From Amoebophrya sp. A120 (taxonomy: Eukaryota; Protista; Dinoflagellata): a DNA stretch of 64,000 nucleotides. The position numbers were made by a program, and so were the translations under genes. Under the pieces are notes generated by a model. The model was not told the DNA's origin. It saw nothing but the letters and a program-made list of their open reading frames with translations, and searched no databases. The stretch lies in assembly GCA_905178155.1 (NCBI GenBank), contig CAJINV010000018.1, positions 600,609-664,608 on the forward strand. The letters run 5' to 3'. Shown here in pieces: positions 3,916-52,846 of this stretch; within the stretch, counting starts at the first letter, position 1; every line of letters begins with the position of its first letter.

Positions 3916-4063
3916 TATCCAGGAAAAAACACCCATCCCCATCCATTTTTTGCATGACAAACACTGCAGATTATGCATGTTTTGCATGACAAACACAGGA
4001 TTTGATGCATGTTTCACATGACAACTTGAATGGGGATGCTGGGTCCTCTTTTTTTTGTGGATA
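3916..4063. mobile_element. Introner family D (degenerate; context unresolved)
   Basis: TATCCAGGAAAAAACACCCATCCCC...TTTTGTGGATA; no clear 5-bp duplication. Confidence 0.6.
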
Positions 4064-4064
4064 G

Positions 4065-7000
4065 AGAAACATCAACACGTATGAGGACGACGGGTACGGG
4101 CAGCGACCCCCGGAAAACGTAACGCGTAGTGATGACTACCTGGTGCACAAGGTACTGCGAATAAACCACGCAACTGCGCCGGGAAGCGAAGATCATCATG
4201 GGCGGGGAGATGCCCTACATCACAACAATGAGCCGCGTCTGAACGATGAGGAGCGGGTGCAGCGGGAAATCAACGACATTGTGCTGAAAAAGGTGAACGA
4301 GGACGAGTCCAGCCCGCTATGCATTGCAAAAGAATCGCATTTAGTAAAAATTGCATCACAAATTTTATCAGCAAAGAAAAATGAAATTTGTAATGCTATT
4401 AACGGTAAAAAGGTAGGTTTGTCATGCAAGATTGCACTTAGTACGAGTGCGATACTTTTGCACAGGATACTCGCTGAAGGATGCGGATTTCGAAGATTTC
4501 CGGCGGTCCCTCGCCAACCGCGACCAGCTACGGATCAAGCAGGAGATATGGAACTGTCAGGATCGAAATTGACAAAATCGAAAAATTTGTGGTGCATAAA
4601 ATGCATGACGCAAAATACATGCGTTGCAGAGCAGGCAAGTGAGGCCGATTGTAAACCTGTTTGGGGTTATAGCTCGAGCTGCTAAAGCAGCATGAGAGGA
4701 TCAGTCTTTTTTGCCTAAACAGCATTACAAACTGGATTTAGGCACCGCCAGAATTTGTCATGCGCCGCTTCGAAACTGGGTTCGAACCGGAATCCATTTT
4801 ATGCATGACAAATGATTTCGATTTTGTCGCTTTCGATCCTGACACACCCATAGGAGAAAAAACGGGAACAGAAAATTGACAAGGCCGAGGAAAGCGGAAC
4901 AGTGATATTACAATGAAAAATGCCCCCACGACCCCAAACTTGGCAGCATTTGCATTGCAAACCTTTCCAATAGAAACATTCACCGTCTTGCATATCTCAG
5001 CATCACAAATTTTCCATGCTGAATAGCTCAAATTTGTGTTGCGAAGGAGCCCAACAGCAGCCGGATCTGTCGCGCAGAAGGCACCTTGCGGCTGCGCAGT
5101 CTAGGTTCTGCATCAGGAAGGCTCGCAATCCTTTCATGCAAGACAAAAAGCTTTCATTTGGAAACTTTGCATGACAAACTTCTGGAAATTCTGTTTTGGG
5201 GGCATTTTTCATTGCAGTAAGTGAATGTCTTTCTCTACGCCAGCGACAAGGGCGACACGAGGACTTCCACGTATGAACTGCAAAAGTATCGTACTCGTAT
5301 TGCAATCATGCATTACATATGGTAAATCCGCATTACAAATTTTATTTCTCATGCTGATGAAATTTGTAATGCATTTATACGAGTGCGATACTTTTGCAGT
5401 TCATACCACGGCGAGAGGAACGACCTTTCTGCGGGTTGGCGGCGGTGATGGTTCATTTTCTTCAAGTGGTGTGAATATCAATAAGGTAAGAACAAACTCC
5501 ACCGCTTCAGCCCTCCGTGCGGAAAAGCGGAGAGAAGCGTACGAAAGGGAGAAGGAGAAGAGGGAAATGCAGGAGTGCACCTTTCGGCCGCAGTCGCGCA
5601 CAACTGCTAAAGGTGTGAGAACATCATCAGTGGGACGAGCAGGAGCCGTGTCGTCTTCTCGACCCGTAGTGCGAGAGCCACCTGCTAGTGCAGCTGGTGC
5701 AGCGGTAGGACAGAAAACCGAAAAATCATCTCCGATTTCTTCTACTTCCGGTTCTTTCGTCTCCGCATCAGCCACGACCCCCGCAGCCGCGCCATCTAGA
5801 ACAAATATGAAACAAGTTCAGCTTGCCCCCTCCGCGTCTGTGAAATTAATTTCCGTGCCCGGCTTATGGAAGTGTCAAAATCGAAACTCGCAAAATCGAA
5901 AAAATTGTATATGCATCAAATGTAGTGGGGCACGTATGGCCTGTGTAGTTGGGGTGCTTGCAGGCAAATGAGACCGATTGCAGGCCTGTTTAGGGGAAGG
6001 CGATGCGCTGCCAGAGTAGCATGACAGGAGCAGTCTTCCTTGCCCAAACAGCATGACAGGTTGGATTTTGTTGCTTCCGAAATTTGTCATGCCCCACTTG
6101 GAAACTGAGGCTCCAACTGGTATCGAGTTTATGCATCACAAAAAATTATTAATTTCGATTTTGTTGATTTCGATTCTGACGCTTCCATACGGCTTTGAGA
6201 AATCCGCCATTCGGATGCGGCTCGGGCGGCTGCAAACGGAGTATGAAGAGAAGAAACGGCAGCTCTTGTGCGGAATATCCACTGCAAATCAAGTATCGTA
6301 CTAATATAAATCGCATGACAAATTTCCACAGCATGAGAAATGAAATTTGTAATGCGGATTTAACTTAACTACAGAAGAACTTGTAGTGCATAAAAAATGC
6401 GATTAGTACGAGTACGAACTTTTGCAGTGCATACGGAAATCTGAACGCCAAAATCACGTCTAGTTTTTCATCATCCGCCCAAACCCTCGACCGTGCGAGC
6501 TGGCGGGACAGACGGCTGGTATCCTGTGCAAAAGTATCGTACTCGTATAAATGCAAGTCTTGCATTACAAATCTTGTTCCCAAGGCAAATCCGCACTACA
6601 AATTTTATTTCTCATGCTGAGGAAATGCATTTATACGAGTGCGATACTTGTACTTCTGCAATTCATAGCTGGCGCCGCCCGACCACGCGACCGCGATCCG
6701 GGACATTGTCCTGCGGGCGGTGGAGGAGAAGGAAGGTGAAAAGAGTTATTTTCGCGAAGGCTGGAAAGGACGAGGGGCAGGGGCCGCAAGCACCTCCTGG
6801 AACAATAAGCAGTCGAGCCCCACGACCGGCGATGAAAACAGTCCACCTCAAGGTCGTGCCAGAAACAAGCAGACCGGGCTTGCTGTTGACATCAGCAGGA
6901 GTGGAAACAAGAACAGAAGCAATACAGGCAGCACGACAAAGAGGGGCAAGAATCAAAAGATAAAGACCACAACCGACGTCGTCGAGGATATTCTGCAACA

Positions 7001-7577
7001 AGTGCGGAAAATGCAGCGACGAGACGCTGCAGAGAAAGAACACAAGATAGACGAGGAGACGAAGAACAAAGACAATCTTCATACTCATCAAACGTCCAAG
7101 GCGGTGGATCATAAAAATGCTGTCAAAGGCAACCATGTGAGGACGTCGCAAGGCTCGATATTTTCCCCGCCAGGGACTACGTCTGCTCCTGATGTAGAAC
7201 AAGTGCTGGCCTTGACTCGTCAACAGACCATGGCTGTTGATGATGAGCCACAGAGTGAAGAAGAAGAGCATGAGCAAGTGGCATCAACTACAACCAAACA
7301 CCCACTCCCGCTCGCAGCCCTGCTTCACACGGACCGTAGCGCCCTGCGGAGCCGAATCCTTGCGAGGAACACGGCAGATGTTGTGGGTCACCAGCAGGAA
7401 AAAGATCCACCGCTGCGGCAGTCGCATGGCCATTGTTCGCCCGAAGTAGAGAAGATCCTTGAGCAGGAAGAACGTGTGCCCGACCGCCACCAGTTGGCAG
7501 CTGTAGTAAAGCCACCCGCCCCCGCCGCGGATGTCGATTTTGAAGTCGATATGGGCTATGTTGATGAGGACGAGTAA
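4065..7577 (+). CDS. Hypothetical protein with a coiled-coil/ECTFRP motif, interrupted by 7 introners; 5' end unresolved
   Basis: Removing the elements at 4318, 4547, 4906, 5272, 5865, 6276 and 6520 (each plus 5 bp) gives one 647-codon frame (...DESSPLKDADFEDF...QEKKREQ...EKEKREMQECTFRPQ...PGFEKSAIRMRLGR...) ending at TAA 7577. Start codon not found. Confidence 0.7.
4318..4469. mobile_element. Introner family A
   Basis: TA..TA ends, TIR TGCAAAAG.ATCGCA; DR CCCGC/CTCGC; frame restored. Confidence 0.85.
4547..4852. mobile_element. Introner family C
   Basis: TIR TATGG..TGTCAGGATCGAAA; DR GGAGA. Confidence 0.9.
4906..5219. mobile_element. Introner family L
   Basis: TIR TA.T.CAATGAAAAATGCCCCCA; DR AGTGA. 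Confidence 0.85.
5272..5405. mobile_element. Introner family A
   Basis: TIR TATGAACTGCAAAAGTATCG.ACTCGTAT; DR CCACG. Confidence 0.9.
5865..6189. mobile_element. Introner family C
   Basis: DR CGGCT; family C TIR. Confidence 0.9.
6276..6433. mobile_element. Introner family A
   Basis: DR CGGAA. Confidence 0.85.
6520..6667. mobile_element. Introner family A
   Basis: DR GCTGG. Confidence 0.9.
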
Positions 7578-7706
7578 GCAGTGGGGATGGAATTAGAAGG
7601 TGTACTCGCACTTCTAGTTCTATACGCTTTGAGTTCCTGTCGTTTTTCCGAACTTCGTTCTTCCCTTGCACGCACGGCTGGATACAGATTATCACGCCGT
7701 GCTGCA

Positions 7707-10700
7707 TCAGGAGGATTTTTGTTCTTCGAGCGGTTTTGAACAAAAGGCAGGGCGGTCGCGGTTTCATTATCCAGGAAAAAACACCCATCCCCATCCAATT
7801 TGTCATGCAAAACATGCATAATCTGCAGTGTTTGTCATGCAAAACTAACATGCTGATGGAGATGGGTGTTTTTTTTTTTCCCTCGATATTCGCTCCTTTC
7901 GCACGGCCTCCTCGAAGTCCAGCAGCCATTTTCTGGTTGTCGGACTGACGTCTTTTTCCCAGTCCGTCCCATAGTAAAAGTCCTGTTCGTACGACCAGTC
8001 TACCTTGTCGTTCTCCTCGCTGTCTCTCAGGATTCGTTTCCGATCCTCCTCACTCTGGCGAAGAAACTTTTTCCGCTGCTCCATCTGCGCGGGCGTGAGC
8101 AGTTTCAGTCGTTCTTTCCGAATCTCCTGCGTCCGCCGGAGTTCGTCCCGGCCCCGCATGAAATCCTGGATAAACTCCTTCTTCTCCATGATCTTCCGAC
8201 TTTTCTCTTTTTCGCTTTTGAAGTCCCGCGCCCACTCGGCATCCCGCTGCATTTCCTCGCGAATCTTCTTGGCTCGGAACCTTTCTTCCTTGTCGTCGAT
8301 CGCTTTCTGTTATCCCATGCGCAAACAAAGCATCGCACTTTAGTATTCGTAGTCAGTGATTGCAAGACTTTGCATGACAAGTAGAAATCGCTTTCCTAAA
8401 AAATATTCCTGAGCTCATGCTGAGACAGCAGTACAGGCTCGATTTCTTCCTCTTCGTCTGAAAAAAATTGCCGACGATCCTTTCACTGAATAGTTGTGCG
8501 ATACAACTTTTGCTAAATGCATATCTGTGCCGCGACGGCAGCGGCGTAATCGCCTTTGCGATCGATCCGCATCACGGCGCGCTGACGCAACTTGTCACGC
8601 GTGAGGTTGCGGTCCTCTCGGTAAAGGGGGTGGTCGTCACCATAAAAGGCTTTTTCCTCATTTAGCAACCGCTGCTTGACACCTGTTTTCGAGAATGGAG
8701 TGGTCGTCTTTCATTCAGATGTACAAAGTGCAGAGTGCACAAGGAAAAACGAAAAGTTGCAAATTTTCGTGGCTGAGATGAACATTTGTTAGTTTGATCA
8801 GGGGGGCAAGACGGAAAAGTTGAAACGTTCGTGCGCGGATGAAATATCGAATAAACATTGCTGCTATCGGAGCTGAGGACCGGCGGGCGCCTGGATCTTG
8901 CGGCAAAGACGAAACAAGCTTTTTGGCTCATTTTGGAACATTGAGCACCGTCCCATCTTTGCAAAATGCATGGAAAAGTCCAAAAATTGCTGCTTTCGTG
9001 GCTGAGGACGGGTGCGTGCCTGACTTATGCAAGCAAGACAAAACAATCTTCTTTTGCGCTTATTTTGCAAAATGGAAGAAAAAAGCAAAACTTTACTGTT
9101 ATCGAGGCTGAGGACGGGCGGGTGGGTGGCTCATGTAAGCAAGATGAGCTAAGCTTTTAAATTATTTTTTTTGGAGGACAGCTCGCCATCATCTACAATG
9201 AATCACGAGGGCGTAGTGAAAAAGTTCTGCATAAAGCATTTTCTTGATGTAAAAACATACTTTGAAACGCATCACGATGGCACGATGAAAAAACATCGTA
9301 TAATTTAGGTTAAGAAGTGCGATTTTGCGTGACTGTTGGACAAGCTAGACCTTTCGCGGTCATACCGTCGTGTTTCTGTTTTTTTCTTCGAAATAAAATG
9401 CTTTTCATTTCATTTTCATTTCAAAATGATTTCGCATTGCCGAAAACAAAATCTGAAACATAAAAAAAAGCCTGCGGCTGCTTGCGCATTCCGATACAGA
9501 GAGAAGACAGAGTAGGAAAAGTTAAAATAGCACTACTACAAGCGAGTGGAACAAGTTGTTGTTCGAGTATAATTCGGTTAGTACCAAGAAATCAATCATA
9601 CCAGCTGCAGACTGGTGCCACTTTTCTCGTTCGCGTCGTCTTTCTTCTTTTTTGATTTTCAGCTCCTTCACCCTTTCGTCCAGAAGTTTTGCCTCCCCGC
9701 TGGCCCACACTTCGCGCACCAGCGTTTTTTCGTTGTGGTTGATCGATTCTCTGGCGCCGACGGGCTGGTCGTGCAGTGTCGTTGGCGGAAGAAAATCGTC
9801 GGAAAACTGACTCCCGGCTTCCCACTCGAGTTGCTGGTAAGCAGGGGAAGCAGCAAGTGGTTCATAGTGGTGCACCAGCGGCGGCTCTTGTATTTTTTCG
9901 TTGTAGGTGCGATCGAAAGTACTTGTACTAGAAGTAGCAGTAGTATGCATGGGTCAGCAGAATCGAAATCGACAAAGTTGAAATGATTTGCCATGCATAA
10001 AATGCAGCCCACAAAGTGCTTGTCTTGCAGAGTAGGCAAGTGAGACAGATTGTAAGCCTGTTCTGGGGTAGAAATAGCGCTGCCAAAGCAGCATGAGAAA
10101 AGGGGCCTTCCTTACCCAAACAGCATGACAAACTGGATTTCGGCTTTACCCAAATTTGTCATGCGCCACTTGGAAACTGGGTTACAACTGGCAGCAATTT
10201 TATGCATGAGAAATTATCTCAACTTTGCCGATTTCGATCCTGACAGTTCCATAAGTAGCCCCAGGAGTCGTCCTACTTCTGGCGTAGTAGTTGTCCCTTT
10301 CGCAGTACGCTTCATCCTCACCATTCCAGCGACTTGTAGTTTCATCCTCGTCGTTATCTGCGGAAAAGTCGTGCGCCGCTGCTGTCGCTCTGACCACAGT
10401 GGTTTCTCCTGTTGGAGCAGGAGCACCACCACCCTTGCCGGTGTTTTTACTAGCAGGCCTTACAACTGTCGTCGAACTCGAAGCACCGTCTTGATACGGT
10501 GGCATACTTCTACTTTGTCCCGCGCCGTCCTCTTCGTCAACAGCACCTCCACCATCCAGTCCCGTCTGAGCGTCTTCGTCAAAAAAGTGCTGAACGTAGA
10601 CCGCTCGATCGTATTCCGCCTCTTTGCCGTCGGAAGAGAGTCTGGCGTGGTTGTTGTTCTGGCCTTATGAGCTGCAAAAGTATTGTATCGTACTCGTATA

Positions 10701-12854
10701 AATGCATTACAAATTTTTCCAGCATGAGAAAGAAAATTTGTCATGCGGATTTACCTCAAGAAAAAAATTTGTAATGCATAACTGCAATTACTACGAGTGC
10801 GATACTTTTGCAAAGCATAGGCCTCGGATGTAGCGCGACCGTTCCTGGACTCCCGAACTGTCAACTGTAAAAATGTCTGGGTCTGGAAGATTCTGCGACT
10901 TGTGATGCACGTCTTGTATGAGCCATGATGTCTGTGATGCACGCCCTAGTAGCACCACCACATATTTTTTGAGGGCATCATCTCGATGCCTATTCCGCAT
11001 GACAAATGCCCTATCCTTGTAGCAAAAATTATACTCCTTTTGCTACTCATGCAATACAGATTTTTTTGGAATCCAAATGCAGCATCACAAGTTGCATTCT
11101 TCCAGACCCAGACACTTTTACAATCCATACGGACTGTCTTCCAGCAGTTTGCTGAGACTCACATCCGTCTTCGGCCGCACCGGGCTGTATCAAGTGCAAA
11201 AGTGTCTGGGTCTGGAAGAATGCAAGATTTGTCATGCATATTTCTCATGACCCATGATAGTCTGTGATGTATGCGCTAGCATTACAGATTTTTAGAACCC
11301 TTCCTGATGCACATTCCGCATGAGAAATGCCCTGTACGTGTAGCACAAACTGTACTCCTCATCTTGCTGGTCATGCAATACAAATTTTTTTTAGAGTCCA
11401 AAAACAGCATGACAAGTTGCAATCTTCCAGACCCAGACACTTTTACATTGGATAGGCTGTTTTCCAAAACCACGTTCTCCGTCCACGGGGACTGATACGA
11501 CAGCTGTGCCGCCGGTAGTGCTCCTCTTCGCTCGCCTGGGTTGAAATAACCAAGTCGCGGCCTCTCTTCAGAAGCGCTCGCGGTGTTGACGCCTCTTTTG
11601 CAGTAGTTACCACTGCTTGCTGGTGTGCTGTCATTTCTACCTGCGTTCGGCGCGGCTCCGGTCCTTGCTTTGCTCGAAGAAGACGTCGTCGGTCGCGAAT
11701 AGTTCTGATTTCGCTTCTGTTGACCGCTCGAACTCGATGCTGAAGTAGCCGAAGCACGGCCCCCACCGCCCGCAGCGCTACCGACGTGAAAATCGCTACC
11801 CAAGCCGTCGTACCTTCCGTACGGATATCCAGAAAAAAAAAACCCATCCCCATCCATTTTTTGCATGACAAACACTGCAGCTTATGCATGTTTTGGATCA
11901 CAAAGTGGATGGAGATGGGTGTTTTTTCCTTGGTAACGGAAAGCTGTCCACTACGCTCCGGCTGTTCGGGTCCCGCAACTCGCGGTCGGCGGAATTCCGG
12001 GGCTGCGACGCCGTCAGCCGCAAGGACCATTTTTCGTTCTTCCCCCCGTCTTCCGGCGGTCGGACGACGACTTTTCTCCATCGATGTTGCTGCTGAAGCT
12101 CCAAGCACCGTTTTTCCAGGCGGCGCAGCTCCTGCTTCTCGTCATCGGAATCGTTGTCCAGTTCCTCCGGCCAAAAATGAAATTTCTTCGAGCAGGAGGC
12201 GGAGGAGGAGGATGATTTCATTTCATCCGTTCTTGCTACGGCCGCGTTCTCGCAATTGGCGACATCTACTTCATCACGAGAAACTGCAACAGATTCGTCC
12301 GGTGGCGGTGGTGCGGCAGTTCTTGCTTTATTTGTTCCTCGGCCTTCGTCCTCACCATCCGTGGCTTTGACTTTGTGTTGATCGTGTGCTTCTTGTTCAT
12401 CTTGAAAAATATTCTTAGCCAGGGACGAGAAGGTCGAGCTGGGCTGCGGTGCCAGATCTATTCAAGAAAAAAACTGTGTTAGTGTAAGTCTTTTGGGAAA
12501 ACAGCATCACAAGTTTGTCTGCCATGACAGGAAATAAAAGTTGTTATGCGCAGATAGGAACGGAAAACACACAGGATGAAGCGAGCCGAAGATCATGCAT
12601 GGCGAGCAGCATGACAAGTGTATACTGTTTTGCATTTTCTGCATCACAGATTTACACTTACATACAAAGCTTTTTTCTTGCATAAGATCAGGGACGAAAA
12701 CATTATCCTCCTCTTCGCTACGAATGCTGGAGAGGGGAAGAGAGCAGTTCTGCGGCTCGAGTGCCATCGTTCTGTGAGTGGTATCAGATATCTTTTCATT
12801 CAAAAAGGCACCATGATCGATCAAGGCCATCGGTGATGCCATTTCCATTTGCAT
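7707..12854 (-). CDS. Hypothetical low-complexity/charged protein (about 838 aa), with 8 introners and 1 GT-AG intron
   Basis: ATG 12854. Removing the elements at 12459, 11826, 11188, 10859, 10666, 9944, 8311 and 7768 plus GT-AG intron 8683-9601 gives a continuous 2517-nt frame to TGA 7707. Confidence 0.65.
7768..7888. mobile_element. Introner family D
   Basis: TIR GAAAAAA..ACACCCATC; DR TTCAT/TTCGC. Confidence 0.8.
8311..8523. mobile_element. Introner family A (degenerate)
   Basis: DR TCTGT; frame restored. Confidence 0.75.
8683..9601 (-). other. Canonical GT-AG intron (919 bp)
   Basis: GCTG|GTATG...AAACAG|GTGTC; the phase-1 join keeps the frame. Confidence 0.6.
9944..10253. mobile_element. 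Introner family C
   Basis: DR AGTAG. Confidence 0.9.
10666..10819. mobile_element. Introner family A
   Basis: DR GGCCT. Confidence 0.9.
10859..11129. mobile_element. Introner family B
   Basis: TIR TGTAAAA.TGTCTGGGTCTGGAAGA; DR CGAAC/CGGAC; left end TG. Confidence 0.9.
11188..11454. mobile_element. Introner family B
   Basis: DR GGCTG. Confidence 0.9.
11826..11935. mobile_element. Introner family D
   Basis: DR ACGGA. Confidence 0.9.
12459..12684. mobile_element. Introner family G
   Basis: TIR TAT.CAAGAAAAAA; DR AGATC; similar to 28084. Confidence 0.85.
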
Positions 12855-13590
12855 TTTCTCCTGTCACTCCAAAATAAACATGCAATGCCGCTCAGTAGTT
12901 CACTCAATCTCACCAGTGCACTTCATATTCCTTAGTGTGCAGCGCCAGCGGGCGCAAAGCGCGACATCGCTTGTGCGCCAGGAGCTAAGGTAAATGTAGC
13001 ATCTCTTGGTGGCTTCGGTCACCTTGAAGATGAATAATGCGAAAATTATTGCTTAGTAGACGTCGAGAACAAACCCGGTTTTCTTTTAGTACTCAGTACA
13101 GTTACGGCGCAACTGCATCTGCAACGCGGCGTCTTTCGCAGGCGTGTTTTTTTGATTTTTTTTCAGTTCTCAACTTGCAAATAAAAGAAATTTAGTTGCA
13201 ATCATTTTTGATCTGTACTGTAACTCGTCCCTGAAAAGATTCTAATGAAGTGCTGGCTTTCGCTTTCGTATTTGCTCTTCTACCAGTCATACGCGGCATA
13301 GTTTTGTAGCGTAGCAGCGACGACCACGACGACGTCTCGAGCCGACTACGAATCTGTGATGGACTTGACCACAACAGAAAATTACTGCAGCTGCGTTGTT
13401 TTCTAGTATGCTGGAGCCTTTTGTTGTGGTGCCGACTTCTACAACATCGCGTGTTCAAATTCTTAGTTGGTGCTGTGCAATAGATGTAGTAGCTTGGAGT
13501 TACTTTGGTTCTCGTGCGTTCCAAATTGCTTAGAATCTTGTCTGAAACCTGTAAAAATAGTTTATGTCCTTGAAACTTTAGTGTTCATAA

Positions 13591-40748: not shown

Positions 40749-43700
40749 TCACAGCTCCTCCCTCCTCGCCCTTTTCCTCAGCGCCTTCTCTGGCGGTCGA
40801 AAGCCCTGCGTTAGTTCGTAGGTTCCTTTCCCAGGGATGTATTTTTCCGTGGGCAGCGAGTCCACCATTTTGTAGTAGTATTTCGTTGCCAGGCCGGAGT
40901 GTTTCCCGACTTTGGACAGCGAATTCATAGCCACGTCCATTGCGGCGTAAATTTCGTGCAAAATGATTGCCTGTTTGATCAGCTTTTCCCGGCGCCGCTT
41001 CAGCAGCTCCACGATCTCGCGCTCAGACGTGGCTGAGGATGACGAGGCTTCTAGTTCTACTTGTACTCTTTCATCTTCTTTCAGATGCACATCACTTTCA
41101 CGACCTGCTTTCTTCACCACCGGCGCGCCGTCCTCTGCTCCCATGATCGCAGTTGTCCTTCTCCTCCATGCGTGTCTGAGTTCTTTTTCGCACGCCACAG
41201 CCCCCGTTGCACTTGCAGCTGGTCCGCTGTCAACTACCTCGTCCACAGGAGGGTCCGCATCCGTCTCGGAAGGCGGAAAAGATCTCCTCCTCGTGGAGGT
41301 CCTTTCAGCTGTCATCAGCTTGACGCATTCGTTGTACTTGGAAGCCAATCGAAAAATTTCGTTTTCGTCGACCATCGGGTTCACTTCTACTTCAGTTCCA
41401 GCGGGATCATGCTTATGCTGAGGCGCAGCTTCGGCTTGGGCTATTTGTCGACCTTCGGCCTTTTCCTTTTCCTCATTTTCTTGGGCTGAATTTATTCCTG
41501 CGTCTGTATGATCTGCACTCGCCACACGAACTAAATCATGATCTGCAGTGCCGCGGCTCCGATGTCCTGCTTTCTGCAATAATTTCCGGTACTGGGTGTC
41601 GATGTCTTTGATGTAAATGGCGTTGCCCCAGAGAGAGCTGGAACTCAATCGGGTGGGCTTCATGCCGCGCCCGGTCAGGTCGCTGAGCCGGTGGAAAACG
41701 AAGTCTCGGTTGCGTTGTCAAATGCAAATGTGTCTGGGTTCTCTGGATCAGGATCAGTCGCGCAACCGACGTTTGTCATGCTGTTCTTGCATGACCGAGG
41801 AGGTCTGGCATGCAAGCCCTAGCATCACACGTGGTCTTGAGAAGGTCTCCCAATGCCGAACCCGCATGACAAATCTCCTCTTTCGGAGTCATCAAATTGA
41901 AATATTGCCCGCGTTTATTGGTGTTCATGCATGACAGATCTTTGGGTTGTCTGAAGTTTGCATCACAACCTGCATCCTTCCAGACCCAGACACATTTGCA
42001 ATGCATATGCGCAGGAAGATGTCGATGTCCGCAAACAGAGGCATGTCCTTGTACAATTTCTGAAAATGCTATCCCCAGTAGAAAACAACCCATGAAGATC
42101 CGGATCCATTTTTTGCATGACAAACACTGGACTTGATGCATGTTTTGCATCACAAATTGGATCATGGGTAAGATGGGTGGTCTTTTTTCATGGATAAATG
42201 CACCTCCACGTCGATGACCACTACCTCCTCCAATGATTCCTTATCAAATGCAAATATGTCTGGGTCTGGAACAAGGTTGCAACTTGTCATGCTAATTCTG
42301 GATCATGCAAAAATCTGTGTTGCATGCGTGCCAAAAGCTGCTCACTTTCGACCAAGTTGGCAGGGAGTTTCTCATGCAGGACAGGCATGGTAGGAATCGC
42401 ACAGAATCTGTCATGCTATGTGCTGCATTCCAGACGACATGGACCTTGGAAAATCTGCATGACAAGTCTCGGAATCTCCCAGACCCAGACATTTTTGCAT
42501 TTGATATTCCTCCGCCCCCTGAAAAACCAGCATCTCCGCTCCCTGCACATCGACCTTCAAAATATCACAGGAAAAAACTGTTTCACTGTGATGACAACTT
42601 TGCAAGATCTGCATCACAAGCTTGCTACACATGACACTGAAAATTTGTCATGCGCGCTTCCTAAGGGAAATAAAACACGCTTGCAAATCCAATGTCTTGC
42701 AGGTGTAGCAAGACAAAGAGTTCTGTGTCCCATTTTCTGCATCACAAGTTCACAGTGAAACAGGTTTTTCTTGCGATACAAAAAATCGATGTCGTAGTTG
42801 TTCGGCCGCAAAGTGTATGAACTGCAAAACTGTATCGCACTCGTACTAAAAATTGCAGATTTGCATGACAAATCTTCTTCCTACGCTAGAAGAGCATTAC
42901 AGATAAATTCTATTTCTTGTCATAATTTGTGATGCAATTCTTACTAAGTACGATACTTTTGCAATGCATAAAATGTAGTCCAGTTTTACCGTCGGCACCG
43001 ACTGTTCCAGTACGACCTTGTAGGCTTCCTCTAGTTGGTCGTATTTGGACACCACATCCACGTTGGGCTCGAGTAGGGAGGACGACAACTCTATCCACAG
43101 GGAATTTCAACAACATCCCGCCTCACACGTAGAAGTTGCAAATACGGTAGTTTATGCAGCATGTCATGTCAAAACTTGTTTGCAATCCTATTCTTTCAGC
43201 ATGACAAGTGGCACTTTTTCAGTAGGCCGCGATTACATTTGTCGTTATGCATGTTGTGCGTGTAGTGCGGCTTCTACGGGACGTCATCAAAATTCGCATT
43301 CTATAAGCCCATTCTGGGTGACGAAAAATGTCCGGCGGCTCCCGTCACCGACGTAGTGGGGAAACAGAAGCATGTTCGGGTAGGATTTCCGGTACTTTTC
43401 GTTGGGGTCAAACCCGATCACCTGGCAGAGATCTTGCATCAGCAGCCGATGGTAAACGTGGGGCTTCCCGCGGACCTGAAGGCATCCTGGGGGAAAAATA
43501 TCGCTTTCGTAGGTCGTCCTTCTAGTAGTTGTTCTTTCTTCAGAACGAGCTGAATTCAATCACAGAATGCATATACGACGACCATACTTCCATGTTTGCA
43601 ATCCCTCAACATACTAACTGACTATCTAGAACGGGCGCGCGCGGCGGTCCGGGCGCCGGCCCACTGAAGTGGCCCTGTAAGGAGGAACGCCCGGACGGGG

Positions 43701-46700
43701 AGCGGCGGAACGTATCGAGGTGGAAAGTGTAAGGACCAGGAGAGACGTATGGATGACCAGACGGACGCAGTCAATCCGCGAAATTTCAAAATTTTATCTT
43801 TATTGTGCGAGCAACAGCTAAAGAGTATGTAGAAGAAGAGTTCTGACGCAGAGCCACACAGAGGCGTCGTGGCACGCTGACAAAAAGCAATGAGGTTGAA
43901 AGGTTTTTAATTAATGTTGACGCAATAACCAAGCAATCCGCGAAATTTCAAAATTTAATTTTAATGAAGACAACAAATCCGCGAAATTTCAAAATTTTAT
44001 TCTTATCACTGGGAGGAGACTTACAAGAATCGTCTGGGTTTCGAGCATCATCGCTACACTGAAGTTGCGAGTCGGCTGGCGGCTACTGCGACCAGTAGTG
44101 CGTAGTATTCAACAAAATGTTGCACTTCGTAGTAGCGTATTAGAAAAGTCTCAGTTTTCGTACGCGGAAATTTCCTCCGATCTGTGGTTCCTCCACGACC
44201 CACCTGAGTGCCGTGCAGGAACGTCCGAGGCAGAGTGAAATTTCACAACACGAGTTCGACGTGCGCAAGTAAAGGCAAGGTGCTCAGTGGCCCATCGGTG
44301 TTCAGGTGAAGTCGCCACCGTGGAAGAAGGAGGTGCAGGTGCCTAGTACTACTTACGACTACGATAACGATAGCTCCTGTAGAAGTTTCGATGCATAAAA
44401 TAGCGCCAACGTCGACGATCTGGATTTTTGGGAAGTTGTGCGACTGAAGCAGAAGCTATTCCGTGAGAATTCACCATCCCAATTTATTTTTTGCATGTGA
44501 AATTTGAACTTCAACAACTTCCTACATTTTTTGCATGACAAATTTCTCTGATGGACGTGATGGACGTGGTTAATTTTCAGGGAATAAAAGCTGCAGGTCA
44601 GGCACACGAGAGTTGCCGGCTGTCGTGCTCGCCGTACTTCCAGCAGCAGGCGGCGGTGGCGCGGATGAAGTGGTTCGCGATCCTCCTCCCGCTGCACTTC
44701 TAGAGGTGGCACTGTCGGTTCTACTTAAGGCCACCGAGCCGGCTGCTGCTCCAACATCCGACGAGGAAGAGGACGACGATCCTAAGACCTCTCGGATATC
44801 AAACTGGCTCCAATTCTCCAGCATCCACGCATGCCTGCCGTCTGCAACACCGGAGTCGAACACCACACTGCTGAGCCCCTGCATCTCCTTGTCCAGGTGC
44901 TTTTTCGCGTTTTCTTCGTCACTCTGCACCTGGATACTGAGACCCTGGAAAAAATCCATCTTTGCAAGCAGCTCCCAAATGGGGAACTGCATGCCGTAAA
45001 ATTTTCGCAGGTCCAAATCGTGTGGAAAGGTGATTTATGAATTGCAAAAGTATTGTACTCGTATAAATGCATTACAAATTTCCTCAGCAAGAAAAATGAA
45101 ATTTGTAATGCTGATTTACCTTAAGAAAAAGATTTGTGATGCATGATTGCAATACGAGTACGATACTTTTGCACAGGATATGATTTTGCGTTCGTAAATC
45201 TCCGCCACAAGATTTTCGTTCTCCTCCTCCGTTTGCGACTGCGCATTCGGGTTATGCATTTTTGCAGAATCATCAAACAACTAGCGCATGCATCTTCATG
45301 TTCATGCTCGGCCGAGTGACAAGTTTGCTCAAGATAAACTTATTTTTTGTTTATGCATCATTCAGGCAACATCAAACGTAACAAGAACTGCAAGGCAAAT
45401 CTGTCATGCAGTGTGGTCGCAATTCGTGCTACTACCACGCTAGCAATTTTTCTGCACTGGATACAGATTCTGGAAGAGCAACAGGGGCTCGGCGGTCGTC
45501 GCGTTCGCTTGCTGGTCCTCCTCCACCTGAACACGCGATCCTGCCTTGCTGTCCGTGCCACTCGAGCCACTTGCCGTTGAACTCGGTACAGCTGGCAAGC
45601 TAGCGCTGCTCGCACCGCTAGACTTCGTCGTCGGAGAGGACGATGCATCTCGATCTCCTGCTTCGATGGCAATGGCAGCGCCGTCTACTTCTGCACCACT
45701 GCTCCCGCCCCTTCCGGGTTTCTTATAGGCTTTCAAGTATTTCACGCGGGTAAGAAACGCCTGCGCCTGGTTATAACCCGCTCAGCTGTTACAATCTCAA
45801 ACGTTACGGTTGTACAATAGAATATGGAAATCTGTGATGCAAAATGTGCATGACCTAGCCTACTCCCACAGCATTGCGCATGACAAGTTCTGGACTCCAA
45901 AACCGCAATTGAATCTGGCGAAATTTGTATTGCAGAAAGTGAAACGCTGTGCGGGTCTGTCATGCTCATCATACACCACAAAATCCAGATTCTTTTGTAA
46001 CGGTTGGGATTGTAACGCTTAGGCGGGTCATACTGGTGCACATACTCGAACGCCTGTACGCGGTCTTGGGCTGCGACGTTGATGAAAGCCAGGTTGATGG
46101 TATCCACAGGAATATTAATCTCCCGGACACGACGTACGAATCGGAATCATGTGGCTCCTTGTTCCGCATGACTACAAACCTTTTGCAGCATGACAAGTGA
46201 GTTGCTTCTTGTTCCAAGTTCGTGAAATGTGTGATGCACTTTGGACAATGTACAGGGAAATTTGTGTTGCATACAGCGCTAGCCACGCCATCGCGACCGG
46301 GCACTTGTTCAAGTGCTCCCGTTGCAGCACTCCCTCGGTCAGGAAGTGGCACCACGATTCGTGCAGGTCCAAGTCTAGGTCATCAAGCTTTTGCGGAAGC
46401 TGCAGGTCGAAGTGGTTTTCCCAGCCCTGGCTGCAAGGGTCCTGTAGGAGAACGCTGTCTTCATTTTGCTCACCGTCTCGCCCGCTGATGCCCTCAGCAG
46501 GAGCTGCGCCATGCTTGATCCTGATACTGTCGGAAATCACGTAGAGGCATCCACAAAAAAGGACCCAGCACCATCCCCATCCTTTTTTTGGATAGTAAAC
46601 TACACAGGGTCTGATCTTGCATGTTTTGCATGACAAATTGGATGCTGGAGATGGGTCTCATTTTTTGTGGATCATAAGAGCAGCGGGAAGATCACGCGCG

Positions 46701-47914
46701 AGAAGTCGTAGAGGAAAAATAGTTTCCCTATCCACAAAAAAACAACCATGATCCCCATCCATTTTTTGCATGACAAATACTCAAAATTATGCGTGTTTTG
46801 CATGACAAAGTGCATGGCTATGGTTGTTTTTTCTTGGATATTCCAGTTGATCAGATCGATGAGCAAACTCCACTCCACAAGCCAGTGTGCCCCCGCCAGT
46901 TCGTTGCTAATGTTATCTTCGGTGTTGGTGGCGAGCCAGGCCAGGCGGACGGAGAGAACGCCGAGCAATTCCTCCGTAGTCAACTGGCGGACGTTTTCCT
47001 GGTCGACGTTGACGTCGAGAAAACATTTGAACTTCACAATCGTCGGCCACAACAAAGTATGCATTGCAAAACCAAAAGTAACGCACTCGTACTGATACGG
47101 ATCGCAATCACGCATGACAAATCTCCTACCTTAGGTAAAGCAGCATCACAAGTTCCACTTTTCTTCTTGCCAAAATTTGTGATGCAATTCCTACTAGTAC
47201 GACTACGATACTTTTGCATTGCATACAAAGTGTTCACCAGTTGCTTGATCCCTTCGCCCGAAAGTTTGTTCCGGCCCCCCGCCTGCAAAATTTCCGTGCC
47301 GAACTCGGCCAAGGGCGTGCGCACCTGCTCCCAGTCGATCTGCAACTCCCGGATCTGCTGGTAATTGGGGTCTTCGTACGGATATGCATTGCAAAATTAT
47401 CGTACTAGTAGACTACTAGTACAAAAAAAAATTACTACTGTAGTAAAGATATGCATTGCAAAATTACTACTGTAGTAATTGCATTGCTTAGCATATACAA
47501 CTGAAATTTGTAATGCTGTTTTACCTTAGAAAGGAGATTTGTCATGCATAGCAGCATTTACTACGAGTACGATAGTTTTGCAGAGCATAACGGATTCGGG
47601 TGGTGCGCGTTGCAACGAGTGATTTGTTCGAGTTGCGGCTGTTGTAAAGGCAGCTCCCCCTCCTGCGGGTTTAATATTTCTCGTTCCACTTCTTGCGCTG
47701 TTACAGGAGCGAGGAGGTTCAGGTTGTGGGGATCACCAGGCAGGAAAAACAACCAGGGCGCAGACAACCAAAATGGTGAGCGTGCATAAGTCGTCGCGTG
47801 GGTCCGGGTCGTGGAGCAAATTATCAGCTGAAAGCCGAGAAGAAAACTTAAGAGCGGCTTGAACTTGGAGGTCAAGAACGACGTCAGGGGGCTAGTTGTA
47901 CTTGTCGCCCCCAT
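40749..47914 (-). CDS. FkbM-family (Methyltransf_21) SAM-dependent methyltransferase with long N- and C-terminal extensions (about 1,134 aa); 15 introners and 1 GT-AG intron
   Basis: The spliced frame contains IQIVDVGA, VIGFDP, VGDGSRRTF, SSLLEPN, TVKLD, IDFLKVDVQGAEMLVFQGA, EVHFQKLYKDMPLFADIDIFLR and WGNAIY. Hydrophobic N-terminus. CDS 3405 nt. The join of the N-terminal half depends on intron 43476-44356. Confidence 0.75.
41716..42007. mobile_element. Introner family B
   Basis: DR TGCGT/TGCGC; left end TG. Confidence 0.85.
42070..42196. mobile_element. Introner family D
   Basis: DR AATGC. Confidence 0.85.
42242..42506. mobile_element. Introner family B
   Basis: DR TTCCT. Confidence 0.9.
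42563..42778. mobile_element. Introner family K
   Basis: TIR TATC.CA.GAAAAA.CTGTTTCACTGTGA; DR CAAAA; restores IDFLKVDVQG. Confidence 0.9.
42816..42970. mobile_element. Introner family A
   Basis: DR AAGTG/AAATG. Confidence 0.88.
43092..43305. mobile_element. Introner family E (degenerate)
   Basis: DR AACTC/AGCCC; frame restored (QNGLSSSLLEPN). Confidence 0.7.
43476..44356 (-). other. Canonical GT-AG intron (881 bp)
   Basis: GTC|GTAAGT...CTTCAG|GTC; phase 0, links the DVGA motif to the rest of the FkbM domain. Confidence 0.65.
44457..44586. mobile_element. Introner family D-like
   Basis: DR GAAGC/AAAGC. Confidence 0.78.
45036..45180. mobile_element. Introner family A
   Basis: DR TGATT. 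Confidence 0.9.
45253..45463. mobile_element. Introner, unclassified/degenerate
   Basis: TA ends; DR CGGGT/CAGAT; frame restored. Confidence 0.65.
45772..46032. mobile_element. Introner family I
   Basis: TIR TAT.ACCCGC...GTTACAATC.CAA.CGTTAC; DR CTGGT. Confidence 0.88.
46101..46273. mobile_element. Introner family E
   Basis: DR eroded (GATGG/CAGCG); element+5 restores the frame. Confidence 0.75.
46548..46676. mobile_element. Introner family D
   Basis: DR AGAGG/AGAGC; left end CA. Confidence 0.8.
46729..46840. mobile_element. Introner family D
   Basis: DR TTCCC/TTCCA. Confidence 0.85.
47058..47225. mobile_element. Introner family A
   Basis: DR CAAAG. Confidence 0.88.
47383..47589. mobile_element. 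Introner family A with a duplicated left end
   Basis: DR ACGGA; GATATGCATTGCAAAATTA repeated at about 47448. Confidence 0.82.
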
Positions 47915-49307
47915 TTTCTTGGACAAGTGTTGGATGCCAGCACGACCACGTGGGTGTGGAGCTCCAGCTGGGTTATTTCAGCGGTAGAAACGTCGTAATT
48001 TGCAGCTCATAGCAAATTTTTTGTTCATCTTTGTTTGACTTTCCTTCAAACGAAACTAAGCATAAGCAGCACGACGACAACTTTATTTTTCAGAACTTAC
48101 AACTACTGGGTGCAGCGGCCTGTTTCATCTACAAGTAGATCTTCTAGTACCGACAAACTCGATGTAAAAAATTGTTGATCTTGAAGATTCGTGATGTAGA
48201 TGTTTATTAATACAATAGTTGTACAGGAGAAACCTGTTTACTGACAGACGAATTGTACGAGCCTCAGCACCACGCACAGTATCAGACAAAAATCATGGAA
48301 CTGCCTGGGAGCAGAGGGCGAAAAAAAGAAAAGAAGAGCCTTCACTTCAGCGGTCAGTCGGTTGCGGTTCATACACATTGAAAAACAATAAAGAGCAGAT
48401 CCTCATGATTGGTACTGGAATCAAAGGAGATCAGCAGGTTGATCACAAGGAAAATTGCGTCTCCACGATGTCCAACACATATGTAAATTGAACAGGATGT
48501 AGTTGGCGAAGATCGTACTTCTTGTGGATATGGATCCCAGCACTCCGCAATAGAAACTGCTCTGCACGACCGCTACATGGGTGAGTGAAAGAAAAAAAAA
48601 CGAACTACGGCAAGAACAGGCCTTCAAGCTGTAAACTAGACGTCCTCTTCAGGTGTGACACGAGCATGTTGAGTTCTATGTGATTGTTTCCTTTTGTGGA
48701 GCGCAATTGTTGTTCACGTTTATTACCAAGCCAAAATTTCAGTTCGTATTGTACAAAGTTCAGCGACAAGTTCTTTACTTTTTTCCCGGAGCAGACGAAT
48801 TATTCCAAAAAGCGCCAACGGTGATGCGAGCTGCGAGTCCTCCATTGTTCGTCGTGATGATGTGCTTTTCTGTACAGAGGACCACTCGTCTACTTCACTA
48901 CTGGCGATCCGTTAGCCAGCACTAACAATGAAGTAGCTCCTCACAGCACAACAAGATCATGCAGCGACTCATCTACTACAGGAAAGGCAAAGGCATGGGC
49001 TTTTCCTTTTCTCCTCCTGTTTTCGTGACTGTGAGAGCCACGCGTGCCTGCGAAACGAGCCTTACAACTGTAGTACATTGTCTGCTCGCAACACGCTGCG
49101 CCACGCCTGCATCAAACAAACTGGTATAAAAATGTAAATGAGATTAAGACTTCTATCGGCATCGACATGAAATGACGCGAAACGCAAACTGGTAGAAAAA
49201 TTATGAACGAACTAGTGCAAGTTCTTTCGATAACGATATCTGGATCATCTGAAATAGACGCAAACTGGTAATAGTAAATAAGCAGGAAATTGATCATATT
49301 GATCAAG

Positions 49308-49559
49308 TATCAAATGTAAAAGTGTCTGGGTCTGGAAGAAAGCATGTTTGTCATGCTTGTCTGGCATGACTCTTAAATCTGTCATGCACGTTGCCCAAGA
49401 GCCGCTTTTTTCTTTCATGCGGAGACGCAATTTGTCATGCAGAATAGGCAACACCTACAAGCTCAGAAGTTTGTCATGCTGAGCCAGCACTTGTGGCCTC
49501 CTCATGCTACGCCACTCAGCATCAGAAGTTTCCAGACCCAGACATTTTTACATTTGATA
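49308..49559. mobile_element. Introner family B outside the CDS (probable 3' UTR)
   Basis: DR TCAAG; about 20 bp downstream of the stop at 49581. Confidence 0.88.
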
Positions 49560-49580
49560 TCAAGACGACTATGTTGACTA

Positions 49581-50960
49581 TCACGCCACGGACGCTGACT
49601 TCGCTAGCCGCTTCTTCTTCTCGGCATTCCGCTTTTCGAGTGCCCTTTTGGCGTCTGGGAGCTAGTATCCTGTGTAAAAACCAACGCACCCACCTCCCCA
49701 GAGTCAAGATGGGGATTTTTTTTTGCTACCCAAACCAACGGCTGTTGCGCATGACAAGTTCTAGTCTTGTTGGCTCGCAGTGTCATCCTGCTATGCTAGC
49801 AGGGCAGCAGCTGCAGCACATCAAATCGGCCATCTCAGCCTGATTCTAGCATGACGAGCTCCTAGATAGCAATAGAAAATCGTCCTCATACTAGGCGGCC
49901 TGCGCATGATGAGAAACGTTTGAGGCTTGCGCTTGCGCATGGAGATTTTGATTTGCGTGACAGGTCTGGGGCGGGGACGTTTTTACATCGGATAAGTAGT
50001 CTTGCTTCATCACGCGGAGCTCTTCGAAGAGGTCGGGCGGATACTTCAGGTTATGCATTGCAAATGCGTCTGGGTCTGAGAATAAAGTCACGACTTGGAT
50101 TGCTAGACTTGCATTCCCGTACAAAAAATTTGTATATTGCAGCATGACCGACAACACGCGACTTATATGATTGTCATGCAACATTGCGGTTTGTAAAAAT
50201 GCGCGTTACAACGCTTGACCATGACGACCTGGAGACAGTAGCAGCGCCAAAAAACTTTGCCATGCTTGACTGCATGAAGTAGAAGCGTCTTGGTCATGCC
50301 GAACTCAGCAACACAACTTTGCAGACCTAGACATAGGTCATGCCGAACTCAGCAACACAACTTTGCAGACCCAGACATTACATTTGCAAGGGATATAAGT
50401 ACAGGGCACGCGACGCCTTTTCTGTGTGCTTGAAGAGCGGCGGATTGATGTTGATGGGCGGGGGTCCGATTGCAGGCGGCAATGGTTCGGGGCCCATCGG
50501 CTTCGCCGTGTCCGGGGGTGCACTATGCATTGCAAAAGTTCATCTCCCGTCGCACAACGTAGTTTTTTTTCATGGCCACGGATAAGAAAATCGCATCGGA
50601 CCCGGCTTCCAGCACAGATTCAAATACTTAAAATGCGCTGCATTTATTTTGGAAATTTCGACGTGCGGGAACAAAGAAGCTACGAACAGCACGAAACCTA
50701 AACTTTTGCAGAGGATAGGGATCCTTGCCGTCCAATTTGGCCAATGCCTCCACTTCCGCACGGTCTGCAGCTCGGTTCTCCTTGGTTTTGTGGTAGTGCT
50801 TGATCTTTTGCCGGTGAAAGTAGATGGGGTAGAGGTGCTTCTCCCGTTGTATGTTGTGGCCGACCATCCAATCCTTGTGCTGCTGGCCCATTTTCTCCGG
50901 ATCCGGTGGGGCGACGTCTGTGGTGGTCGTGTTGATTTTTATCTTGGTTTTCTTCTTCAT
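49581..50960 (-). CDS. Hypothetical basic/proline-rich protein (at least 165 aa), 3 introners
   Basis: MKKKTKIK...LDGKDP|PPDTAKP...ALYL|KYPPDLFEELRVMKQDY|FPDAKRALEKR...SVA* after removing 50524, 50052 and 49666. The start may lie further upstream. Confidence 0.55.
49666..49994. mobile_element. Introner family F
   Basis: DR GCTAG/AGTAG. Confidence 0.8.
50052..50395. mobile_element. Introner family B with an internal tandem duplication of about 44 bp
   Basis: DR CAGGT/TAAGT. Confidence 0.78.
50524..50717. mobile_element. Introner, unclassified
   Basis: TATGCATTGCAAAAGTT...AACTTTTGCAGAGGATA; DR eroded; element+5 restores the frame. Confidence 0.7.
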
Positions 50961-52320: not shown

Positions 52321-52846
52321 CGAATTTTGCATTGCTCAAAATCGATTTTGCATTCCCGCAGACGCGGATTGCACAAAATCGATTTTGCATGATTGCACGA
52401 AACCGAATCCCGCAAAATCGATTTTGCATTGCACAAAATCGATTTTGCGTTGCACAAAACCGAAGCCCGATTTTGCATTGCACAAAATCGATTTTGCATT
52501 GCACAAAACCGAATGCCGCAAAATCGATCTTGCATTGCACAAAATCGATTTTGCATTGCACAAAACCGAATGCCGCAAAATCGATCTTGCATTGCACAAA
52601 ATCGATTTTGCATTGGACAAGATCGATTTTGCATTGCACAAAACCTAGTCCCGATTTTGCATTGCACAAAATAGATTTTGCATTCCCTCAGACGCGGATT
52701 GCACAAAATCGATTTTGCATATGCACAAAACCGAATCCCGCAAAATCGATTTCGCATTGCACAAAATCGATTTTGCATTGCACAAAACCGAATCCCGCAA
52801 AATCGATTTTGCATTGCACAAAATCGATTTTGCATTGCACAAAACC
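52321..52846. repeat. Tandem array of about 21-bp self-complementary units TGCACAAAATCGATTTTGCAT with AACCGAAT(C/G)CCGC variants
   Basis: Directly visible. It continues at 60056-60220 and as dispersed copies to about 62420. Confidence 0.9.

What the first reader, a model, noticed from the sequence alone, without database searches (positions are those of the whole stretch)
3916..50717. Genes riddled with 58 TIR transposon-introns (introners) that lack GT-AG and follow one rule: remove the element plus one 5-bp target copy
Seen: 58 elements with the structure [5-bp DR]-TA...TIR...TA-[5-bp DR]. For all 56 inside coding sequence, deleting element+5 bp restores the frame whatever the element length. 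In dynein this rebuilds conserved motifs (VNFDP, LEPIF, FYFVANQALLDILS, LFLEGARWD). At the junctions I examined, no register within the repeat gives GT-AG; at 36505-36810 the transcript-strand repeat CTTTC contains no G at all. Ordinary GT-AG introns coexist in the same genes. Known: IR/DR-flanked non-canonical introner elements were described in Amoebophrya spp. (Farhat et al. 2021, BMC Biology; recalled, not checked), and to my knowledge their removal mechanism is unresolved. Inference: a second precise excision pathway (structure-guided spliceosome, non-spliceosomal endonuclease/ligase, or DNA-level excision) works alongside canonical splicing.
Basis: partly seen in the sequence, partly recalled or inferred. 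Interest (0 to 1): 0.92.

Follow-up and report, generated by a model that had tools for sequence, protein, structure and literature searches.

The report
Hairpin-measured transposon introns in Amoebophrya
Genes of the algal parasite Amoebophrya A120 are packed with hairpin-shaped transposon insertions lacking normal splice signals, a class already published for this strain, and transcript assemblies of its dynein gene lack them cleanly, likely cut one base before and four bases after the hairpin by a probably altered spliceosome.

Summary
Observation confirmed: 58 TA...TA inverted-repeat elements, 37 with a perfect 5-bp direct repeat, none GT-AG in any register. Removing element+5 gives a 4,586-aa dynein identical to annotated Amoebrophrya sp. 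A120 protein CAD7970852.1, so these are the introner elements of Farhat et al. 2021: known class, known genome. Transcript-type contigs lack 22 of 23 dynein elements at exactly +5. New here: imperfect repeats fix the cut. Three RNA junctions and one protein comparison fit only one shared register: 4 nt of the upstream repeat and 1 nt of the downstream stay in the exon, so the intron reads N-UAU...AUA-NNNN. An in-frame AG 3 nt away is skipped at two sites. Position 2-3 (UA) matches local canonical donors; the geometry resembles Euglena's nonconventional code. Best reading: hairpin-ruler splicing by a relaxed spliceosome (0.5) versus a dedicated nuclease-ligase (0.35). An intact ~98% paralog exists, but this copy is transcribed. 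The scan noted similar introns before in other genomes.

The parts
16825..39015 (-). Axonemal-type dynein heavy chain gene, 4,586 aa, with 23 elements: 17084-17357, 17453-17606, 17664-17818, 26623-26888, 27227-27533, 27738-28017, 28084-28295, 28497-28772, 28840-29100, 30016-30169, 30408-30714, 30736-31046, 31902-32137, 32207-32471, 32523-32807, 32928-33078, 33169-35341, 35414-35564, 35754-36066, 36505-36810, 36859-37119, 37689-37861, 38649-38801
   Evidence: Model; 0 differences from P0121 = CAD7970852.1; Pfam dynein domains; RNA contigs
17870..38581 (-). Five canonical GT-AG introns of the dynein gene: 38396-38581, 24920-25079, 21062-21231, 20201-20359, 17870-18085; they start GTGT, GTAT, GTAT, GTAC, GTAC
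   Evidence: three shown as CT..AC joints
17084..17357 (-). Element whose repeat copies differ at transcript position 5; RNA takes that base from the downstream copy (removed span 17080-17358), so at most 4 upstream repeat bases stay in the exon
   Evidence: Joint 17079|17359 in X3 and X5, absent from X1
17453..17606 (-). Element with repeat mismatch at position 3; RNA takes the upstream copy's base (at least 3 bases kept)
   Evidence: Joint 17446|17606; paralog has the same Met
37689..37861 (-). Element with repeat mismatch at position 4; RNA takes the upstream copy's base (at least 4 bases kept), giving the conserved Phe
   Evidence: X3 record 8 pieces ending 37682 and 37861 with no other letters; Phe in 7 of 7 homologs shown
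49666..49994 (-). Element with mismatches at positions 4 and 5; keeping 3 or fewer bases gives a stop, keeping 5 gives Phe where the AT5 ortholog has Leu, so only 4 fits
   Evidence: protein evidence only
28497..28772 (-). Element that offers an in-frame GT...AG pair (element+2) which is not used; 32207-32471 likewise
   Evidence: Alternatives listed; RNA contig lengths fit +5; gap-free alignments
33169..35341 (-). 2,173-nt compound intron: a ~265-nt family member with a second inverted-repeat element of about 1.85 kb (about 33317-35165) nested inside, removed as one unit
   Evidence: Family assignment; inner ends; summed RNA skip fits
3879..7577 (+). Low-complexity open frame (657 aa stop to stop) with 8 elements: 3916-4063 (no repeat; also has an in-frame GT-AG option 3915-4064), 4318-4469, 4547-4852, 4906-5219, 5272-5405, 5865-6189, 6276-6433, 6520-6667
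   Evidence: no RNA laid here
7710..8710 (-). Open frame (219 aa) with elements 7768-7888 and 8311-8523
   Evidence: no RNA laid here
9522..12863 (-). Open frame (657 aa) with elements 9944-10253, 10666-10819, 10859-11129, 11188-11454, 11826-11935, 12459-12684
   Evidence: no RNA laid here
40749..43559 (-). Open frame (503 aa) with elements 41716-42007, 42070-42196, 42242-42506, 42563-42778, 42816-42970, 43092-43305
   Evidence: junctions not shown in the listed RNA rows
44243..47977 (-). Open frame (717 aa) with elements 44457-44586, 45036-45180, 45253-45463, 45772-46032, 46101-46273, 46548-46676, 46729-46840, 47058-47225, 47383-47589
   Evidence: junctions not shown in the listed RNA rows
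49581..51044 (-). Small gene with elements 49666-49994, 50052-50395, 50524-50717; ortholog g2005.t1 of Amoebophrya AT5
   Evidence: one-residue gap next to the 50524 junction, so that boundary is not fixed
49308..49559 (.). Element with perfect repeat outside any long open frame

Best explanation
These are short inverted-repeat transposon copies with a 5-bp target duplication that transcript contigs of the dynein gene lack exactly (element plus 5 bases), and they are likely cut one base before and four bases after the hairpin formed by their ends, probably by a spliceosome that no longer needs the first G or the final AG. Shown: structure, families, both orientations, removal length in dynein RNA contigs, and the base choices at three junctions. 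Inferred: insertion by an unidentified cut-and-paste transposase made the duplication; the predicted end stem brings the exons together and acts as a ruler; the intron reads N-UAU...AUA-NNNN, which keeps U at +2 and A at +3 as in the canonical donors of the same gene; the spliceosome core does the chemistry without a recognisable U1.
For: Removal: 7 junctions seen directly and 15 more by exact summed length; model and RNA contig agree at 11 of 12 points, the twelfth lying inside a removed repeat copy. Register: at most 4 at 17084, at least 3 at 17453, at least 4 at 37689, exactly 4 at 49666 by stop avoidance and ortholog residue. Ruler: end-closing stem predicted in 56 of 57 short elements, median z -7.3; repeat sequence is free and an in-frame AG 3 nt away is skipped at 28497 and 32207. 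Spliceosome: 5' U-A is intact in 58 of 58 elements, while the matching 3' pair is mutated in 5 (p=0.06); 4 of 5 canonical introns here start GTA; in Farhat's Table S4 all nine listed top A120 sites have T second and all nine A25 sites start TT, and A25 repeats start TTA; U1 snRNA was not detected in A25 or A120 but was in the canonical-intron strain Kv (PMC12005148); Fritillaria shows a spliceosome can adapt this way (PMC11282704, PMC13326754).
Against: Only one RNA junction bounds the register from above, from two contig runs of one study; no raw reads covered the exons. The last two intron bases are random under this register (AG in 5 of 58) and +1 is random. No branch-like motif sits at a steady distance: the last sense GCATNACA lies 40-220 nt from the 3' cut and is absent in 12 of 58. 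Five of six families are inserted in both orientations. The 0 versus 5 asymmetry is not significant, TA ends are also what a transposase would need, and Table S4 comes from HISAT2 alignments that may favour donor-like positions (my inference). Position-5 mismatches are synonymous in 5 of 6 cases (p=0.007 post hoc), which would fit a cut wobbling between 4 and 5.
Confidence: 0.5

Rival explanations
1. Same hairpin ruler, but the cut and join are made by a dedicated non-spliceosomal machine (structure-specific endonuclease plus RNA ligase, possibly transposase-derived), convergent with Euglena nonconventional introns.
For: Geometry N1-stem-N4 parallels Euglena's genetically defined N3-CDG...CH'G-N5-6 (PMC12501133); Euglena's are excised as circles by an unknown route (review PMC11282704). 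Nearby AG skipped, no steady branch motif, both orientations removed, shared subterminal motif in 57 of 58 elements at 11.9 per kb inside versus 0.19 outside with no orientation bias.
Against: No such enzyme was looked for or found; U1 is undetected just in the two strains with these introns, which a separate machine would not explain; U+2/A+3 coincide with canonical donors in two strains with unrelated element families.
Confidence: 0.35
2. The joined forms are reverse-transcriptase template switches across hairpins flanked by repeats, and this locus is a dead copy covered by its paralog.
For: Strong hairpins with short repeats are the usual substrate of such artefacts (recalled); evidence is cDNA contigs only; an intact paralog exists; at 17084 the switch falls in the longest match.
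Against: One 13.4-kb contig lacks all elements it spans with one other letter in the pieces listed; at 37689 the join uses the 2-nt match and gives the conserved Phe rather than the 3-nt match; 21 of 23 elements carry a stop if kept, yet exons are intact and 97-99% identical to the paralog; six other genes stay open, and one matches its ortholog across 3/5 repeats.
Confidence: 0.05
3. Elements are excised from DNA in an expressing life stage.
For: The DNA-type run X1 holds element-free joins at 26617|26889 and 30408|31047.
Against: The 26617|26889 contig carries about 1% other letters and the second join goes with two shared substitutions, as expected of the paralog; X1 has no joint at the three 3' elements where RNA contigs do and holds exon-element junctions unchanged. 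Contigs drop rare variants and the stage of X1 is unknown.
Confidence: 0.03

Closest known systems
Introner elements among the non-canonical introns of Amoebophrya sp. A120 (Farhat et al. 2021, PMC7789003; read: abstract, sections 10-12, 16, 32, passages, supplement part 3 and figure legends)
   Same: Same organism and gene model; repeats starting TAT, seven variable bases, then As; 3-5-nt direct repeats over the borders; RNA-seq-supported; mixed with GT-AG introns in one gene.
   Different: The paper calls splice positions relative to the hairpin variable and borders unknown (Fig. 3 legend) and found no clear dinucleotide signature; here four imperfect repeats fit one 1/4 register. Its 40-1000-bp filter would omit the 2.2-kb nested intron. 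Supplementary figures S19-S25 were seen as legends only and may already show this offset.
Euglena nonconventional introns (PMC12501133, passages; PMC11282704 section 6)
   Same: Transposon-like, ends paired, cuts set by spacers from the paired motif with a longer 3' spacer, repeats make borders slidable, mechanism unknown.
   Different: Motif CDG/CH'G with spacers 3 and 5-6 and a purine starting the 3' exon, against TAT/ATA with spacers 1 and 4 and no purine rule (33 of 58); unrelated lineage.
Fritillaria borealis non-canonical introns (PMC13326754 abstract and part 1 of discussion; PMC11282704 section 6)
   Same: TIR/TSD-derived introns handled by an adapted U2 spliceosome.
   Different: They keep preferred termini (AG-AC, AG-AT) and U1 snRNA; here both terminal positions are free.
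Non-autonomous TIR DNA transposons (MITEs)
   Same: Short, non-coding, terminal inverted repeats, fixed-length target duplication, families of copies, nesting.
   Different: Removed from transcripts; cognate transposase unidentified (Farhat reported none in A120).

Membership tests
Amoebophrya A120 introner elements | Inverted repeat of 8-20 nt joining intron ends | tested here: met
   end-closing stem in 56 of 57 short elements
Amoebophrya A120 introner elements | 3-5-nt direct repeat over the exon/intron borders | tested here: met
   37 of 58 perfect 5-mers, 13 at 4/5
Amoebophrya A120 introner elements | Repeat starts TAT, seven variable bases, then a run of A | tested here: met
   5' end T 58, A 58, T 56 of 58; positions 11-14 A in 47, 47, 58, 42
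Amoebophrya A120 introner elements | Non-GT-AG and absent from transcripts | tested here: met
   0 of 58 GT-AG within the repeat; 22 of 23 dynein elements absent from RNA-type contigs; the 35 others not shown by RNA
Amoebophrya A120 introner elements | Repeated, in families; host is A120 | tested here: met
   46 of 58 in six families; protein identical to CAD7970852.1
U2 spliceosomal intron | GT/GC-AG termini | tested here: not met
   in-frame AG skipped at two sites
U2 spliceosomal intron | Branch point near the 3' end | tested here: inconclusive
   Only one candidate motif examined; 40-220 nt away, absent in 12 of 58
U2 spliceosomal intron | Lariat product, dependence on U2/U6/Prp8 | not testable with these tools
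   No raw reads covered the locus
Euglena nonconventional intron | N3-CDG...CH'G-N5-6 followed by a purine | tested here: not met
   Ends are TAT/ATA, spacers 1 and 4, purine in 33 of 58
Euglena nonconventional intron | Paired ends with spacer-set cuts | tested here: met
   register rests on four junctions
Euglena nonconventional intron | Excised as full-length circle | not testable with these tools
   No raw reads on the locus
MITE / TIR DNA transposon | Target duplication made at insertion | tested here: met
   Element-free DNA contig with one copy of the 5-mer at 26617|26889, about 1% diverged
MITE / TIR DNA transposon | Cognate autonomous transposase | tested here: inconclusive
   ORF lists of 33200-35300 and 51000-64000; only the LINE ORF was scanned (RT, RNase H); no whole genome held

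The most novel reading that the evidence does not exclude
Amoebophrya A120 removes tens of thousands of introns with a non-spliceosomal machine that reads a fixed code, N-UAU...AUA-NNNN, measuring both cuts from the transposon's own terminal stem and ignoring nearby AG: a second, independent origin of Euglena-like structure-measured splicing that makes any insertion of these transposons harmless.
Probability: 0.3. Interest if true: 0.85.

Novelty: already known. Interest (0 to 1): 0.45.

Why it matters
The elements are published, but how they leave the RNA is not. A fixed 1/4 register turns 'borders unknown' into a concrete splice code. It predicts the exact lariat or circle junction to search for, lets annotators place about 30,000 A120 introner borders, and links the 5' end to the U+2/A+3 of ordinary donors. 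I did not find this register in print, but most subscription papers are outside the library and the supplementary figures were not visible. If the machine is not the spliceosome, it would be a new RNA-processing activity; if it is, it shows how far terminal-base rules can be relaxed.

Tried and rejected
No whole genome is held, so no genome-wide junction count or transposase search. No RNA holder was listed on record; 4 of 12 runs were laid. Raw-read run X10 placed 167 reads, almost all on one element fragment and none on dynein exons, so lariats, circles and retention could not be examined. A metagenome scan with a dynein exon found no related locus. Rules element+0,1,3,4,6,7 give early stops; +2 and +8 stay open but fail the RNA coordinates. 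Nearby GT-AG use: 18 of 58 have an in-frame pair within 10 nt; for the dynein ones RNA lengths exclude it, for the others (including 3916) it is untested. Base composition of the repeat shows no AG or G bias. GCATNACA as a branch point: no steady distance or orientation. A processed retrocopy as source of the empty sites: X1 shows no joint at three canonical introns. Earlier-findings look-ups for this genome and for an element sequence were empty.
Full report
Observation. The elements are real. A strict scan finds 26 at high stringency against none in five shuffles. A profile scan gave 48 clear elements, and 10 were added by hand, for 58 between 3916 and 50717. The direct repeat is 5 nt: 37 perfect, 13 at 4/5, 5 at 3/5, 2 at 2/5, one with none, and no perfect repeat at 3, 4 or 6-9 nt. 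No register within the repeat yields GT-AG (0 of 58). 57 lie in seven frames that stay open after removing element+5. 46 fall into six families, five of which occur in both orientations. 56 of 57 short elements are predicted to close their ends in a stem.

Identity. Removing 23 elements and 5 GT-AG introns gives a 4,586-aa dynein heavy chain with no difference from CAD7970852.1, labelled Amoebophrya sp. A120 by its source. Farhat et al. 2021 (PMC7789003; abstract, sections 10, 11, 12, 16, 32, passages, supplement part 3 and legends) report that over 60% of introns in A25 and A120 are non-canonical and that 29,850 A120 introns are repeated elements with inverted repeats starting TAT and 3-5-nt direct repeats. 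The window's elements fit this signature. The class, the strain and this gene model are therefore known.

Removal from RNA. Four of twelve listed runs were laid. X3 and X5 are labelled RNA by guess; they skip canonical introns, so I treat them as transcripts. X1 covers intergenic DNA and introns, so I treat it as DNA. A 13,412-nt X3 contig matches the model at 11 of 12 points, the twelfth lying inside a removed repeat copy. Seven junctions are seen directly (30016, 30408, 30736, 37689; 17084, 17453, 17664). Fifteen more are fixed by exact summed lengths, including the 2,173-nt nested element. 38649 and the 35 elements outside dynein were not shown by RNA. Alignments are gap-free at 23 of 23 junctions against the paralog, 20 of 20 against the AT5 fragment and 22 of 23 against Polarella. 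If kept, 21 of 23 elements carry a stop, one shifts the frame and one (35414) reads through.

The paralog. CAD7941439.1 is about 98% identical and lies on another scaffold. X1 has contigs with other letters across 18390-26600 at depth 38-61 against about 30 elsewhere, and element-free joins at three sites. X3 and X5 carry the window's letters at the listed positions, apart from 22198; X5 also has one contig with the other letters at 30322/30332, so the paralog is probably expressed too. The contig with the 17084 join has no other letters across two codons where the paralog protein differs. So this locus is transcribed, and the empty site with a single 5-mer supports a true target duplication.

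The cut position. Where the two repeat copies differ, the mRNA shows which copy it kept. At 17084 position 5 comes from the downstream copy (joint 17079|17359, X3 and X5). At 17453 position 3 and at 37689 position 4 come from the upstream copy. At 49666, keeping 3 or fewer bases makes a stop and keeping 5 gives Phe where the AT5 ortholog has Leu. One register fits all four: exon-NNNN | N-UAU...AUA-NNNN | N-exon. At 28497 and 32207 an in-frame GT...AG pair exists with the same 5' position and an AG 3 nt earlier, and it is not used. Against a rigid register: only one RNA junction bounds it from above, both runs are of one study, and position-5 mismatches are synonymous in 5 of 6 cases after leaving out 3916, which would also fit wobble between 4 and 5. 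Farhat's Fig. 3 legend calls the position variable and unknown, though its Table S4 lists only sites with T second for A120 and TT for A25.

Mechanism. Shown: structure and removal length. Inferred: the stem serves as a ruler. For the spliceosome: the register puts U at +2 and A at +3, as in 4 of 5 canonical donors here; the 5' UA is intact in 58 of 58 while the 3' counterpart is changed in 5 (p=0.06); A25 repeats start TTA; U1 is undetected in A25 and A120 but found in strain Kv, which has canonical introns (PMC12005148, passages); Fritillaria is a precedent. That U+2 and A+3 contact U6 is recalled, not from a call. For a separate machine: free terminal bases, skipped AG, no steady branch motif, both orientations, and the likeness to Euglena's N3...N5-6 spacer code (PMC12501133, passages), whose introns leave as circles (PMC11282704 section 6). 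I put these at 0.5 and 0.35. Template switching (0.05) and DNA excision (0.03) are argued against in the rival entries.

Comparison and novelty. Member of the A120 introner elements on every feature tested. Not a GT-AG intron and not a Euglena-type intron by motif, though it works like the latter in geometry. Gozashti et al. 2025 (PMC12130899, passages) also note tens of introner insertions per gene in A120. PMC12621601 (one passage) does not mention Amoebophrya. Six searches on Amoebophrya introns showed no paper giving the register; supplementary figures S19-S25 of Farhat were seen as legends only and could bear on it. Earlier notes of this scan describe similar introns in other genomes; I did not check their data.

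Verdict. Observation confirmed, phenomenon already known, one useful and testable addition (the 1/4 register with a skipped AG). Interest 0.45.

Noticed in passing
window 17819-26617: 8,094 nt of dynein coding sequence (59% of the CDS) hold no element while 23 crowd the rest (about 1e-9 under uniform insertion, post hoc). The same stretch is 99.3% identical in protein to the paralog against 97.1% in the tail (Fisher p 8e-9) and shows raised DNA depth. Gene conversion between the paralogs may be erasing insertions.
   Followed up: partly
window 33169-35341: An introner with a ~1.85-kb unrelated inverted-repeat element nested in it is still removed as one intron; no target duplication was found for the inner element and no long ORF.
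   Followed up: partly
all elements: Shared subterminal motif GCAT[GCT]ACA in 57 of 58 elements across unrelated families, 11.9 per kb inside against 0.19 outside, both orientations; candidate transposase or splicing-factor site. Two copies also sit in canonical intron 17870-18085, which may be an old element.
   Followed up: partly
57 elements in open frames: Strong phase bias under the 1/4 register: 29, 7, 21 for phases 0, 1, 2 (p=0.0015); removed length is a multiple of three in 27 of 57. Unexplained.
   Followed up: no
window 30715-30730: 16-nt micro-exon between two elements is kept in the RNA contig; several other exons are 43-67 nt.
   Followed up: yes
window 3916-4063: The only element with no repeat also offers an in-frame GT-AG intron 3915-4064; it may have become canonical. 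No RNA laid.
   Followed up: no
window 13591-15699: 2.1-kb intergenic element with long inverted ends and a TAA target duplication; PIF/Harbinger-like by recalled target rule.
   Followed up: partly
window 52203-62494: About 10-kb region with imperfect inverted ends and degenerate tandem repeats, holding a 2,214-aa open frame (52966-59610) with RT and RNase H domains, a nested non-LTR retrotransposon.
   Followed up: partly
window 22198: Window has A, both RNA-type runs C, the DNA-type run T: possible assembly error or paralog mixing.
   Followed up: no
window 37034-37119: Raw-read run X10 has 167 reads with an 86-nt end fragment of the ~265-nt family in other flanks: a truncated copy kept in an RNA elsewhere.
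   Followed up: no
window 16825-51044: AT5 orthologs of the dynein and of the small gene at 49581-51044 are numbered g2002 and g2005, hinting at kept gene order.
   Followed up: no
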